From positions 10,761,267 through 10,770,436 of the forward strand of contig CM082577.2 in NCBI GenBank assembly GCA_040954595.2: DNA of 9,170 bases, in the 5' to 3' direction. Position numbers and translations under genes: made by a program. The first letter of the stretch is position 1. Each line of letters starts with the position of its first letter. Origin of the DNA: Balanoglossus misakiensis (taxonomy: Eukaryota; Animalia; Hemichordata). The notes under the pieces are model-generated. The model saw only the letters and a program-made list of their open reading frames with translations. It had not been told where the DNA came from and made no database searches. Positions 1,130-6,980 of the stretch are shown here, piece after piece.

Positions 1130-1343
1130 GCTCCACAATTTCACAGGAACTTGCAGACGGCTTCAGAAAGTTCATCTACACTAAAAAAGATCTATCGAGG
1201 TCGTATTATGTTGGTTGGGGCATATGGTGCTGGGAAGACATCAACCAAACGGAGTCTATTCGACGAGCCTTTTCAAGAAATATATCACAGCACTGATGGA
1301 GCCGATATATACAAGATAGACATCACAGAATGGATAATTAATG
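1130..1343 (+). CDS. Exon 1 (in window): Roc domain N-terminus with P-loop and switch I
   Basis: Acceptor ...cttcttcatcaatgttcag|; donor G|GTATCT at 1344 (phase 1). Encodes APQFHRNLQ...RGRIMLVGAYGAGKTSTKRSLFDEPFQEIYHSTDGADIYKIDITEWIIN, with GxxxxGKT/S at 1217-1243 and STDG at 1289-1300. An alternative acceptor at 1146/1147 is possible. Confidence 0.85.
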
Positions 1344-1672
1344 GTATCTTATATTTTCTGCGACAGTAATAAATTAGGTTATTTATCGCAGCGGCGCTTC
1401 ATGTCATTAAGTTTTGGTCTAATTGTAATATTTTACACGAGTACCACGTACATGTACGTTAAAAATCATGTAGGCAGGTCTACTGAGCTCGTTAAAACGT
1501 GGTGGACGTTTTATAAGCATTTCTATTGAACTTAATGACAAATGATGTGAGATCCCAGGAGGGGCTAAGATTTTATGTTGCAAATTTTAAAACCATGATT
1601 CTTTATTAATATTCGTATTGCAACGTAAATGTGATCTAAACAAACGGGAGCATGTTTCCGTTTATGCTTTTT

Positions 1673-1784
1673 TACGGGATGCCGACTAAATCATTATTTA
1701 AGCCCACTACTTGTATTCTACAACTACTACGGGATGCCGACTAAATCATTATTTAAGCCCACTACTTGTATTCTACAACTACTA
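1673..1784. repeat. Exact 55-bp tandem duplication
   Basis: TACGGGATGCCGACTAAATCATTATTTAAGCCCACTACTTGTATTCTACAACTAC at 1673-1727 and 1728-1782, followed by TA. Confidence 0.95.
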
Positions 1785-2052
1785 TGTAACTGACGACCGT
1801 TTGCGAAGAAACGTTGTGCATTACTGGCGGGTATTGGGTTGATCAGGATTCATAATCTAAGATATATTTCATTATAATCCATTAATCGGGTCTTTAAATG
1901 TCGATTGTACAGAAAGACAAACGGCCAGACAGGAATCAGTCACGGAGGCTTTAACAAATAGCAAGTCGACCACTTAATCGGCATGAAAGCCCATTGTTTT
2001 GATAACTGATTTGATGAATGGAATGTATGACACATTCCGTCCTCTTGTTTAG

Positions 2053-2351
2053 AATGTGTCACCAAAATCCAAAGCGCACAATCTTCAGAAGGGACCCAGA
2101 AGTTATTAGAAGATGTTCTTCTTCTTGGGATGACCGATAACACATCACGTAGCTCGACTGGAGCATCTTCCATGGACGTTGCCAAAGTTGCCGATGTACT
2201 GGATGCAATCAAGCTGAAAGGAGAAGGAATACGGGATGTCCAGGAACGACTCAGGCGTCGTTTGGAGACAACTAGCGACCATAATGTACCTGATATGTAC
2301 TTCAGTTTGTGGGATTATGCGGGACAAAGTCTTTACTACATCACTCATCAG
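2053..2351 (+). CDS. Exon 2: Roc insertion plus G3/switch II motif
   Basis: Acceptor ...tcctcttgtttag| (phase 1 matches exon 1); donor CAG|GTATAT (phase 0). Open frame ending FSLWDYAGQSLYYITHQ, the Roc-type WD[FY]xGQxxYYxTH signature (WDYAGQ at 2310-2327). Confidence 0.88.
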
Positions 2352-2580
2352 GTATATGTTCTATAATCTTCTTCTGTTTGGGCCTGAAATATGCAGCTTT
2401 GACGCAAGAGCTATGATAATGCAGCCACGGTTCAATATGGCAAAATGTTCACATTGATATCGTAGACTCTTTGCATTTTTAAAAATGTCCCCCTTTCGAT
2501 GTACATGTACAATTGTTGTCCTGAACTCCAGCAGGCTGTCGACATGTAATCTGTTATCTGTTACGCATGAACTCCTCAAG

Positions 2581-2942
2581 TCTCTCTCTCTCTCTCCCTC
2601 TCTCTCTCTCTCTCTCTCTCTCTCTCTCTCTCTCCCTCCTCTCTCTCTCTCTCTCTCTCTCTCTCTCTCTCTCTCTCTCTCTCTCTCGCTCTCTCGCTCT
2701 CTCTCTCCCTCTCCCTCTCTCTCCTTCCATCTCTCTCTCTCTCTCTCTCTCTCTCTCTCTCTCTCTCTCTCTCTCTCTCTCTCTCTCTCTCTCTCTCTCT
2801 CTCTCTCTCTCTCTCTCTCTCTCTATCGCTCTCTCTCTCTATCGTTCTCTCTCTCCCCCTCTCTCTCTCTCTCTTACCTCACTGTCTCTCTCCCTCCCCC
2901 TCCCTCTCTCTCTCTCTCCCCCCCTCTCTCTCTCTCTCTCTC
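2581..2942. repeat. Imperfect (CT)n microsatellite abutting the exon 3 splice acceptor
   Basis: About 360 nt of almost pure pyrimidine on the + strand, ending directly at CAG|GTTTTT. Confidence 0.97.
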
Positions 2943-2944
2943 AG

Positions 2945-3996: not shown

Positions 3997-4114
3997 AATT
4001 CCTGAGTTTTTGGACGAATTCGATTCATACCCATGCAAGACCAGAAAAAGTGTAAAAGGAACACTTGCACCACCTGTCATCGTCTTAGGAACCAAGAAAG
4101 ACCGACTCGTACAG
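3997..4114 (+). CDS. Exon 4: Roc helix and G4 motif, split by a -1 frameshift
   Basis: Acceptor ...cgttttattttag| (phase 1). The incoming frame reads EFLSFWTNSIHTHARPEKV* (TAA 4053-4055). The -1 frame reads SVKGTLAPPVIVLGTKKDRLVQ up to donor CAG|GTAGGG at 4115 (phase 0). Both halves match the Roc xWLxSIxxxA...PVIxVGTxxD pattern. Confidence 0.82.
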
Positions 4115-4322
4115 GTAGGGCATTCAGTTAAACATTCATTGGCAAGTCGCTTACTGAAACACATTGTTTCACCTGAATTACAGTCAAATGTGGAATTATT
4201 GGCAATACAATGAAATATGCCTATATCGTACATATTGTACAACACGTGCTGATTCCCATGCAAAAGATTGATTTAGCAAATCTTCATAGTAGAGTTTTAT
4301 CGTGGATTTCTCCCCTTGGCAG

Positions 4323-5580
4323 GGGAAGCGCTTTCCTTGGGCTAAAAACAAACATATCCGAGAAGCGTCTAAGGAACGTCTCGACGAGATCGGGAACTAC
4401 CTGAGAAAACATGCAACCATGGCAGTTAATGCACATGTTGTCGACACGATTGCCATTGACAACAAATCAAGAAAATGGTATAATGGCACCGTTCGTGATC
4501 CAGGCATTGTATATCTTCGACAAAAGATACAGGAGCTTGCAAAGGATCATTTCTATCTGGGGGAAGTATCCGTAAAGTGGGTGCGCTTGGAATTGTCACT
4601 GAGGCAGCAGCAGAAGCAGACGATGACCTTAGACGAAGTGAAGAAGTTGGGAGAAGAGTTGGAAATGGGAGAAGATGAAATAAGCAAAGCTTTGGCGTTC
4701 TATCACGATGTCGGGGAAATTCTACACTTCACGTCAATACCTGAACTCAGCGAAACTGTCATCTTGGATGTTGGGTGGTTGGTTAATCTATTCAAGATAT
4801 TGATCACCCAATCTGTTGCAGACCAGGCATCAAACGTCCCACCAAAAATGGTCAGTCAGATTGAGGAGTTGCACAGTGAAGGAAGATTGCATGACGAGTT
4901 GTTGGATTATCTACTGAAACGCCACGACCGCCTGCATGACAAAGCGATTCTCCTGGCAACATTGACGATGTATGACGTCCTTTGGGAGATGCCTGGCAAA
5001 CCTGGCGTATATTATGTACCAAGTCTACTGAAGAAGGACACAGAAGGGAAGAATAGTGCTGTGTTCCCAGCAGGCTCCAAATCATGCGGTCCACTCTATT
5101 TCCATTTCACGGGGAATTTCCTTCCGGAGGGGTTATTCTACCGACTTGTTGTCCGATGCTTGAAGCGATGGCCCAACCGAGAAATCGTCCTGCGACGGCA
5201 TAAAGCTCGCATATTCATCATCCTAGAAGATTTGCAAATAACTCTTTGCAAACGTGGATCGGATATCGAGCTTGACGCAATACTTCTCAACGACTCCCAA
5301 CGTGACCCGAGCCTACATCCACATCATCTCAGAAACGTGTACAAGGAGGTTGTCAACGAATTACAACAACTTATCAAGACATACGCCCCTGGTTTGGAGT
5401 ACAAAGTCTGCATTAAGTGCGACTGTCCAAATCACTCTCCGGGGAAATTACTAGAAGGTTCTGAAGATACAGATGACCGATGTGTTGAAATCAAAGAAAC
5501 GGAAAACACAAGACATGCCGTCTGTCCTCAGAGCGCCACATCTATTAAGTCTCCAGCTTTGGATATGTGGTATGGCAAAG
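4323..5580 (+). CDS. Exon 5: end of Roc and complete COR domain
   Basis: Acceptor ...tttctccccttggcag| (phase 0); donor AAAG|GTGAGC at 5581 (phase 1). 1258-nt open frame with COR-type motifs KWVRLELSL, ALAFYHDVGEILHF, VILDVGWLVNLFKILIT, YYVPSLL and FLPEGLFYRLVVRCL. Confidence 0.92.
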
Positions 5581-5924
5581 GTGAGCTTTTGGGTATTAAG
5601 AAAAACTGTTAAGGGTTTAATAAGCAATATGATGCACTTAATCAATTGTATAATTAATGTAACAGAATATTTATGAGGAATTCTTAATCACTGACCGCCC
5701 AAAGACATTCTCGTTTAGAATGTAACGTTATTAAACTGCAGTCATCAATTCGTTGGTTTAGACATCTTGCGTGTGGTCTGTCAGTCAATGCACAGCTTAC
5801 GTACAAATTACATTACATGTATATAGCAAAAAAAAAACATAATGCCACTTTTCTAAAGGGAATTTTGTTTTCATTTAGTGACGGCAAGAAATAAAATCAT
5901 TTCTGTCTTTCGTTTTAATTTTAG

Positions 5925-5988
5925 ATCATGATGGACGGATGGAAATAGGAACAAGTGTACCTCGCCCGGATTCTGCGGAAAGTGATAG
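5925..5988 (+). CDS. Exon 6: short linker exon (DHDGRMEIGTSVPRPDSAESD)
   Basis: Acceptor ...tctttcgttttaattttag|; donor AG|GTAGTT at 5989. Enters in phase 1 and exits in phase 2, exactly bridging exon 5 and exon 7. Not present in the ORF track. Confidence 0.75.
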
Positions 5989-6625
5989 GTAGTTGATATT
6001 ACAATATTTTAAATTGATCTAACGGAGCCGCAGATTGAGATTAATAACCATTGAATGATATTTTGCACTCCTCGTGGTTAACACCACACTGCATGCTCGG
6101 AATGACGAAAGGAGATGTTTTAATATCTTTTGAATGTTCCTTCGTTTGTGAGTTCCATAGTTTCCGTGCATAATGTTTCGGTTCGTGCAGATTTTTATTA
6201 TCAATTTGAAATCAACCTCACCTGATTAGCATGATGCCCCACTCTGTAATTAACCGCTGTTGGCAATCCGATGACTACTACAACTCAACAATAATATGAA
6301 AACCCAGAAAAATAATGTTTGTATTATCAATCAAGAGACAAATTGCCTGTAAGTCAAACATCTAACTATATAAACGGCGATAACATTCCTTTGGTTCTTA
6401 TAAAATTGTATGATAGAGATATAAAGGGCTGCCCTGACATCAGATTATGAAAGCTTTGGTATGTCAGTGTATAGGCTCCAAGTATATGTTACATAACACA
6501 TCGTAGCGAATATTTCAGAAAATAACCTGAATTAGATATTTATGGGATGTATTGGTGAGGTTGTGACTCGGGACTTATTTAAATTATAGCATGTCTAATT
6601 TGACATATATCTCTTACGCCCCCAG

Positions 6626-6911
6626 TTGGCAGAAGAGAGCAACCCGTCTTCATCCACTGAAAAGACTCTACAATGAGTTAAACGAAGAAATGGGCAAGCA
6701 AGATGAGGATGGCTTGAGACACCTACTGGAAGGACATCAAATTCCAAAGAGGGAGCTGGAGGATCTTCGCAGTCCTGCGGCCATCTTCCAGAGGCTACAA
6801 GAGAAAGGTCACATTTCAGAGAAAGATCTGAGTTTCTTGAAAGAAATACTTGGCATTATGCGCCGTGAACCTCTGGTACGACGGGTAGAAGCTTGTGAGA
6901 GAACACTGGAG
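6626..6911 (+). CDS. Exon 7: death effector domain (DED)
   Basis: Acceptor ...ctcttacgcccccag| (phase 2); donor GAG|GTATGG at 6912 (phase 0). LKRLYNELNEEMGKQDEDGLRHLLEGHQIPKRELEDLRSPAAIFQRLQEKGHISEKDLSFLKEILGIMRREPLVRRVEACE aligns by eye with the FADD/caspase-8 DED pattern (LKFL.., KRKLE, LFxxLxExxxI, LxxLxELLxxxRRxDLLxxV). Confidence 0.85.
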
Positions 6912-6980
6912 GTATGGTCTGAAAAGCCATAAGAGAAAAGCGTGCAACCATTCAACAGGTGAGGCGTTATCCTTTTATCT

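What the first reader, a model, noticed from the sequence alone, without database searches (positions are those of the whole stretch)
1130..6932. ROCO GTPase (Roc-COR) fused to a C-terminal death effector domain
Seen: Roc motifs, COR motifs and a DED-like exon on one strand, connected by phase-compatible splice sites. Known: human ROCO proteins are LRRK1/LRRK2 (kinase after COR), MFHAS1 and DAPK1 (death domain after COR), while DEDs are typical of FADD, caspase-8/10 and cFLIP. Invertebrates are known to shuffle death-fold domains onto P-loop NTPases, so the combination may exist in automated annotations, but I do not recognise a characterised Roc-COR-DED protein. Inference: a GTP-regulated, COR-dimerising switch that clusters DEDs to recruit or inhibit caspase-8/FADD-like partners, i.e. 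a candidate innate-immune or cell-death sensor analogous to NLR/Apaf-type receptors but GTPase-based.
Basis: partly seen in the sequence, partly recalled or inferred. Interest (0 to 1): 0.8.

Follow-up and report, generated by a model that had tools for sequence, protein, structure and literature searches.

The report
Broken acorn-worm GTPase death-effector gene
This stretch holds an animal gene, likely from an acorn worm, that joins an LRRK2-type GTPase switch to a death effector domain, a pairing also found in many unstudied acorn-worm database proteins that likely act as immune or cell-death sensors, but this copy has a reading-frame break and is likely a dead gene.

Summary
The Roc-COR-DED architecture is real: seven GT-AG exons, G1-G5 motifs, COR-A (E 1e-14), and a DED (E 4e-16; its model is closest to FADD DED, Z 14.1). 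The claimed 787-aa product is not encoded. The exons sum to 2363 nt, and a frameshift in exon 4 gives a stop after 224 codons, before G4, COR and DED. The loop there is 28 nt shorter than in 13 of 14 Ptychodera relatives, so one real deletion is likelier than a sequencing slip; reads did not settle it. The gene starts at a splice acceptor, so its N-terminus lies outside the window. It belongs to an acorn-worm Roco clade in which 16 of 26 database relatives carry a DED after COR and 3 carry a GT4 glycosyltransferase. COR+DED is already listed for a sponge protein in a 2021 supplement; nine literature searches found no characterisation. The DED lacks the FADD/caspase-8 Phe and the RxDL motif, so caspase-8 recruitment is unsupported. 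Unchecked scan notes report Roc-COR-DED in a feather star and ankyrin-cassette Roco genes elsewhere in this genome. Verdict: a new, uncharacterised variant of a known family, here probably a pseudogene.

The parts
1130..1343 (+). Exon 1 (internal; begins at an acceptor, phase 0): alpha0 helix, beta1, G1 P-loop (1217-1243), G2 (1286-1300)
   Evidence: Roc 7.8e-05; 82% to P0001
2053..2351 (+). Exon 2: helical insertion inside Roc, then G3 (2310-2324)
   Evidence: helices at the matching place in the homologue model
2945..3047 (+). Exon 3: Roc strand after switch II; its acceptor follows a TC microsatellite
   Evidence: 55-65% to five homologues
3997..4114 (+). Exon 4: conserved Roc helix in one frame, then strand 5 and G4 (4088-4102) in another frame
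4044..4055 (+). Frameshift site (loop 28 nt shorter than in most Ptychodera relatives) and premature stop at 4053-4055, 59 nt before the exon 4/5 junction
4323..5580 (+). Exon 5: end of Roc with G5 (4452-4463), COR-A (about 4575-5030), COR-B (about 5094-5441) and a Cys/His cluster (5409-5435)
5925..5988 (+). Exon 6 (predicted): 64-nt linker exon that restores phase between exons 5 and 7
   Evidence: best-scoring of 25 phase-compatible open candidates in this intron; no homology or transcript support
6626..6932 (+). Exon 7: death effector domain (about 6666-6902) and stop codon
   Evidence: (DED 3.9e-16)

Best explanation
The window holds the last seven exons (the sixth only predicted) of a Roc-COR-DED gene, likely from an acorn worm, whose frame is broken in exon 4 by what is likely one 28-base deletion, so this copy is likely a recent pseudogene of an expanded family whose intact members likely work as GTP-gated immune or cell-death adaptors. 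Shown: domains, motifs, the break, and the family in three acorn-worm species with DED or GT4 after COR. Inferred for intact members: an N-terminal repeat sensor (ankyrin or LRR in two relatives) encoded outside the window binds a cue; GTP loading of Roc breaks a resting COR-mediated dimer, as in the bacterial model protein; the DED, on a flexible linker, is freed to recruit a DED-bearing partner through a surface that differs from the canonical FADD/caspase-8 one. Inferred for this copy: the message would stop after G3, lack G4, G5, COR and DED, and be degraded by nonsense-mediated decay (general knowledge, untested in acorn worms).
For: Break. The spacer between the His-x-His motif and PPV is 35 nt here against 17-22 residues in 25 of 26 relatives (21 in 13 of 14 Ptychodera proteins; P0004 read from the alignment; the exception, P0077, has 8), so one event explains both the shortening and the shift. 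Family: the window falls in a 27-row clade (SH-aLRT 100, quick tree) whose 26 other rows are all Ptychodera, Glandiceps or Saccoglossus; 16 of 26 have DED after COR, 3 of 26 GT4 (one has both), 8 are partial or have nothing recognised. Glandiceps copies carry neighbouring locus numbers on one chromosome. DNA contigs of one sample lay on the locus at 99+% (35), 95-99% (47), 90-95% (46) and under 90% (34) of 162 in run X1, i.e. several close copies or alleles. Recent loss: G1-G5 intact, no other stop in 787 codons; 10 of the 21 displayed coding differences are synonymous against 22% expected (p 0.008, or 0.07 if 30% is expected; only the 40 best-supported of 234 rows were displayed). Fold of an intact homologue (P0021, pLDDT 82): best match C. 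tepidum Roco, E 2.7e-17; the COR-DED linker has pLDDT under 50. A variable effector slot after COR is described for bacterial AP-GTPase systems (PMC8195603 passages), and high pseudogene rates for expanded algal Roco genes (PMC11378527 passages).
Against: No read or transcript shows the break; the indel table displays 12 of 39 rows, none at 4044-4049, although the bin is covered. The window keeps 127 of 139 columns invariant in 11 relatives (0.914), lower than nine of them (0.948-1.0) but near P0021 (0.92) and above P0030 (0.84), so relaxed selection is neither shown nor excluded. The immune role rests on architecture and analogy only. The DED column matching caspase-8 Phe holds Phe in 0 of 14 family C-terminal DEDs and exact RxDL occurs in 2 of 14. 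The N-terminus of this gene is unknown, and only 2 of 26 clade relatives show a repeat sensor.
Confidence: 0.55

Rival explanations
1. The frameshift is an assembly error and this copy is an intact Roc-COR-DED gene.
For: The break lies at a short A run, where long-read errors are common (general knowledge). Everything else is intact: G1-G5, all splice sites, no other stop. One distant relative (P0077) has a short loop here, so the loop tolerates shortening.
Against: It needs two events at one place, an in-frame shortening of about nine codons and a one-base error; 25 of 26 relatives have 17-22 residues there. Three contigs match the window with no difference over 398, 257 and 133 bases nearby, so the local assembly is not generally noisy.
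Confidence: 0.2
2. Intact family members are not activators but decoys or non-death scaffolds: the degenerate DED caps or diverts DED assemblies, or binds an unrelated partner as PEA-15 binds ERK2.
For: Phe of the hydrophobic patch is absent in 14 of 14 and RxDL in 12 of 14 family C-terminal DEDs, while 4 of 4 N-terminal DEDs examined keep RxDL; PMC4558505 passages tie these features to FADD/FLIP/caspase-8 contacts. Viral FLIP MC159 and PEA-15 score within 1 Z of FADD DED against the model (13.4, 13.3 vs 14.1).
Against: Relatives put active effectors (caspase, TIR, HEPN, GT4) in the same slot, which suits an output domain. The motif call rests on sequence alignment, and invertebrate DED pairs may use their own surfaces.
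Confidence: 0.18
3. Alternative splicing bypasses the break and gives a near full-length protein.
For: 13 donor/acceptor pairs around intron 3 keep an open frame of 751-799 codons.
Against: Each pair removes or misreads the conserved helix of exon 4, and all four donors other than or including 3047 pair only with acceptors that skip it; the alternative donors score lower than 3047 (3-4 vs 5). The product would lack core G-domain elements.
Confidence: 0.05
4. The DED exon belongs to a separate gene.
For: Exon 5 and exon 7 are out of phase without exon 6, which has no homology support.
Against: Exon 7 begins at an acceptor without its own start; 18 of 211 proteins examined have the same DED directly after COR; homologues match exons 1-5 and 7 in order.
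Confidence: 0.02

Closest known systems
Uncharacterised RefSeq Roc-COR-DED proteins of Ptychodera flava (XP_070576156.1, XP_070572439.1), Glandiceps talaboti (XP_077987484.1) and Saccoglossus kowalevskii (XP_002733781.1)
   Same: Same clade and domain order; 53-61% identity over exon 5 for the closest Ptychodera proteins.
   Different: Automated models only, several misnamed as kinases; they have an open frame where the window has a break.
Amphimedon XP_019855546.1, listed as APGTPase+COR+DED+TRADDN+CASPASE (PMC8195603, supplementary file 4)
   Same: DED directly after Roc-COR in an animal.
   Different: Carries its own TRADD-N and caspase; a table row, not studied; I did not compare its sequence with the window.
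Bacterial AP-GTPase (LRR-Roc-COR-effector) counter-invader systems (PMC8195603 passages)
   Same: Paralogue sets with a variable C-terminal effector, GT4 among them.
   Different: Prokaryotic, N-terminal LRRs as a rule; DED is not among the effectors named in the passage read.
DAPK1 and Trichoplax Roco proteins with death or CARD domains (PMC4104024 and PMC6337361 passages)
   Same: Death-fold domain attached to Roc-COR.
   Different: Death domain or CARD, not DED; DAPK1 has an N-terminal kinase.
Chlorobium tepidum Roco and LRRK1/LRRK2 (solved structures)
   Same: Best fold matches of an intact homologue (E 2.7e-17 and 5.7e-16); alpha0 helix, G1-G5, COR-A/B.
   Different: About 14% identity; no kinase after COR here; a helical insertion inside Roc.
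Brown-algal LRR-ROCO candidate immune receptors (PMC11378527 passages)
   Same: Lineage-specific Roco expansion with many pseudogenes and a proposed immune role.
   Different: Simple LRR-Roc-COR without a death-fold output; exon shuffling of sensors is not shown for this gene.

Membership tests
Roco GTPases | Roc domain with G1-G5 motifs | tested here: met
   All five motifs found across exons 1, 2, 4, 5; Pfam Roc on exons 1 and 2; definition from PMC6337361 passages
Roco GTPases | COR domain directly after Roc | tested here: met
   COR-A 54.7 bits, above cut-off; COR-B 21.2 bits, below cut-off; homologue model matches Roc-COR structures
Roco GTPases | Roc and COR in one open reading frame (functional gene) | tested here: not met
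   Frameshift and stop in exon 4 as assembled; met by relatives such as P0001 and P0021
Roco GTPases | GTP binding, hydrolysis and nucleotide-dependent dimer cycle | not testable with these tools
   Needs biochemistry
Death effector domains | DED profile and six-helix death fold closest to DEDs | tested here: met
   Pfam DED 59.5 bits; caspase-8 DED best PDB sequence hit; top nine fold matches are DEDs, best Z 14.1, rmsd 1.2 over 87, first PYD at Z 10.9
Death effector domains of FADD/caspase-8 type | Phe of the alpha2 hydrophobic patch and RxDL motif | tested here: not met
   His and REPL in the window; motif roles from PMC4558505 passages; alignment-based
LRRK1/LRRK2-type Roco | Kinase after COR | tested here: not met
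   COR is followed by a DED and a stop
DAPK1-type Roco | C-terminal death domain; N-terminal kinase | tested here: not met
   C-terminal domain is a DED; the N-terminus is outside the window and untested
NLR/Apaf-1 (STAND) receptors | NACHT or NB-ARC ATPase core | tested here: not met
   The NTPase is a Roc GTPase; the likeness is functional at most
AP-GTPase counter-invader systems | Paralogues with variable effector after COR | tested here: met
   DED, GT4 or both within the acorn-worm clade
AP-GTPase counter-invader systems | Rapidly evolving N-terminal repeat sensor | tested here: inconclusive
   No ankyrin or LRR exon in the window; LRR in P0077 and ankyrin in P0033 only

The most novel reading that the evidence does not exclude
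Acorn worms have built a GTPase-based counterpart of the NLR receptor system: a young, multi-copy Roco clade with variable repeat sensors in front and a swappable output behind (DED, GT4 glycosyltransferase or both), turning over by birth and death, with a DED that signals through its own non-canonical partner. The window is one freshly lost member.
Probability: 0.4. Interest if true: 0.7.

Novelty: new variant of a known kind. Interest (0 to 1): 0.4.

Why it matters
Roco proteins are studied almost only as LRRK2, DAPK1 and bacterial models. A deuterostome clade that pairs Roc-COR with a DED or a GT4 enzyme offers a compact, kinase-free test of how the Roc-COR nucleotide cycle controls an output domain, and of whether animals use Roco proteins as intracellular immune receptors, as proposed for bacteria and brown algae. 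The interest lies in the family; this copy is probably dead, and intact Ptychodera or Glandiceps paralogues are the ones to study.

Tried and rejected
No whole genome is held, so the upstream exons and paralogue count could not be examined. Run search: no RNA holder listed; this says nothing about expression. The three DNA runs are one sample, contigs only, and may or may not be the source of the window; run X3 laid one contig. Read evidence at the break was not obtained. A COR homodimer prediction (residues 80-419 of exon 5, two copies; my alignment was not used) gave no answer, score 0.00, which is no evidence either way. A search with the DED alone for longer proteins found none of 235 candidates at E<=0.01, so no acorn-worm caspase-8 or FADD was in hand and DED binding was not tested. 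tblastn of 11 ankyrin, LRR, DED, GT4, caspase and N-terminal pieces of relatives found nothing under E 0.04 in the window except the DED exon itself. The careful tree did not finish; the quick tree was used, P0054 dropped out for lack of an envelope, and 51 of the 211 proteins then held went into it, chosen by me. Pfam was run on 74 of the 138 new representatives. PMC12771713 matched only an author's name. Literature searches found no paper describing a Roc-COR-DED protein or acorn-worm Roco genes; the library lacks most subscription papers, file 13 of the PMC8195603 supplements was not searched and file 4 was cut when stored.
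Full report
Observation. The window is AT-rich animal DNA with microsatellites. Seven + strand exons with AG/GT ends lie at 1130-1343, 2053-2351, 2945-3047, 3997-4114, 4323-5580, 5925-5988 and 6626-6932. Pfam on the exon translations gives Roc on exons 1 and 2 (below cut-off because split), COR-A above and COR-B below cut-off on exon 5, and DED alone on exon 7 at E 3.9e-16. 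The best PDB sequence match of exon 7 is caspase-8 DED. Its model (pLDDT 83.9) is closest to FADD DED (Z 14.1, rmsd 1.2 over 87); the top nine matches are DEDs and the first pyrin domain scores 10.9. G1-G5 are all present. Exon 6 has no homology support, but it is the best of 25 phase-compatible open candidates and gives a linker of 36 residues against 15-65 in 13 relatives.

The break. The exons sum to 2363 nt and the first stop is codon 225, at 4053-4055. Five homologues match the first half of exon 4 in frame 3 and the second half in frame 2. The spacer at this place is 35 nt, against 17-22 residues in 25 of 26 relatives and 21 in 13 of 14 Ptychodera proteins, a 28-nt shortfall. One deletion explains both facts; an error needs two events at one spot. 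Thirteen alternative splice pairs keep a frame open but lose or misread the conserved helix. Contigs of one DNA sample cover the region, but the displayed indel rows (12 of 39) do not include this place, so the question stays open; I put a real lesion at about 70%. The rest looks recently functional: no other stop, intact motifs, 10 of 21 displayed coding differences synonymous (a biased subset). Retention of invariant columns, 127 of 139, is at the low end but within the range of relatives.

The 5' end. Exon 1 starts at an acceptor with the helix that precedes Roc; in full-length Roco proteins that helix links Roc to the N-terminal repeats (PMC6337361 passages). The only in-frame ATG is inside strand 1. 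Seven Ptychodera models shown start at this same Met and are probably truncated. No sensor exon is detectable in the window and no genome is held.

The family. Exon 5 finds 19 longer proteins, led by Ptychodera flava (53-58%) and Glandiceps talaboti. A profile search gives 64 proteins: the top 25 (550 bits and up) are all acorn-worm, then a drop to 226 bits. An unfiltered HMMER search gives 8072 representatives at E<=0.001, of which 150 were listed. In a quick tree of 52 rows the window sits in a 27-row clade (SH-aLRT 100) of Ptychodera, Glandiceps and Saccoglossus proteins, nearest four Ptychodera proteins, so the source is likely an acorn worm. Of the 26 relatives, 16 have a DED after COR, 3 a GT4-conflict glycosyltransferase (P0002 both), and 8 are partial or end without a recognised domain. 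With a family-built DED profile, 18 of 211 proteins have DED after COR, all acorn-worm, and 9 have DED before Roc, among them crinoid and amphioxus proteins; the sample is biased towards this clade. N-terminal LRR (P0077), ankyrin (P0033) and DED (P0029, possibly a fused model of neighbours) occur in the clade. More distant invertebrate relatives put Death, CARD, caspase, TIR, HEPN, GT4 or kinase domains after COR (74 of 138 new representatives scanned). In run X1, 162 contigs spread from 99+% to under 90% identity, which points to several close copies or alleles in that sample.

Mechanism. An intact homologue folds confidently (pLDDT 82, pTM 0.77) and matches C. tepidum Roco and LRRK1/2 best; its COR-DED linker is low-confidence, consistent with a flexible tether. 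The bacterial model protein is a dimer without nucleotide or with GDP and a monomer with GTP (PMC5714945 abstract), with dimer contacts in the C-terminal half of COR (PMC6337361 passages). I therefore infer that sensing leads to GTP loading, release of a resting dimer and exposure of the DED to a DED-bearing partner. This is analogy, not a result. The partner is uncertain: the window has His where caspase-8 DED1 has Phe, none of 14 family C-terminal DEDs has Phe there, 2 of 14 keep RxDL, and all 4 N-terminal DEDs examined keep it; these features serve FADD/FLIP/caspase-8 contacts (PMC4558505 passages). A decoy or non-death role remains a real rival.

What is known. PMC8195603 (passages; supplement rows) describes bacterial AP-GTPase-COR proteins with at least 24 alternative C-terminal effectors and lists a sponge protein as APGTPase+COR+DED+TRADDN+CASPASE. 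Trichoplax has at least 17 Roco genes with CARD and death domains (PMC4104024 passages); sea anemones have LRR-Roc-COR-TIR genes (PMC5094078 passages); brown algae have expanded Roco genes with many pseudogenes (PMC11378527 passages). Searches (listings only, apart from the papers named) found no study of a Roc-COR-DED protein or of acorn-worm Roco genes; searches were for mechanism. Unreviewed scan notes report Roc-COR-DED behind ankyrin cassettes in a feather star and two ankyrin-cassette Roco loci elsewhere in this genome; none lies near this window. I did not test them; they suggest what the missing 5' part may be.

Verdict. The architecture is real and uncharacterised but is common in acorn-worm annotations, is listed once in print, and fits a known pattern of effector swapping on Roc-COR. 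This copy is probably a pseudogene. New variant of a known kind; interest 0.4.

Noticed in passing
window 1673-1782: Perfect 55-bp tandem duplication in intron 1.
   Followed up: no
window 6981-7129 and 3641-3838: Two short elements bounded by inverted repeats (24 nt, 96%; 21 nt, 95%), one just after the stop codon, one in intron 3; possibly small non-autonomous transposons.
   Followed up: no
window 8400-9170: Degenerate AT-rich repeat with units about 150-175 bases apart, below the Tandem Repeats Finder threshold.
   Followed up: no
window 1-378, 2581-2942, 3121-3214, 3884-3926: Long TC, TTAT and CA microsatellites; the second TC array serves as the pyrimidine tract of exon 3.
   Followed up: partly
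window 5577-6480 and 6675-5561: DNA contigs show a joint that skips exon 6 (one contig, 27 letters on the short side) and one that runs back from the DED exon to the end of exon 5 (both runs, 19-31 letters); they may come from rearranged paralogues or be artefacts.
   Followed up: no
window 5409-5530: Cys/His cluster at the end of COR-B conserved across the clade; may bind zinc (inference).
   Followed up: no
P0082 (Owenia CAH1786849.1), P0083 (Lingula), P0114 (Exaiptasia), P0052 (Mytilus): Roc-COR fused to a caspase, in Owenia with an N-terminal Bcl-2 domain: a striking one-chain death switch.
   Followed up: partly
P0086, P0088, P0144; P0093, P0105, P0106, P0108, P0127, P0129, P0137: Roc proteins with TAZ, CREB-binding or Med25 domains in front, and seven with Neuralized-Roc-COR-Death-TIR; organisms not looked up.
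   Followed up: no
P0001, P0003, P0009, P0022, P0023, P0025, P0027: RefSeq names these proteins serine/threonine kinases (pats1, qkgA, roco4) although Pfam finds no kinase domain in them.
   Followed up: yes
P0012-P0015, P0085: A second Ptychodera Roco cluster on one chromosome, mostly with N-terminal DED and with hydrophobic, probably membrane-spanning C-termini.
   Followed up: partly
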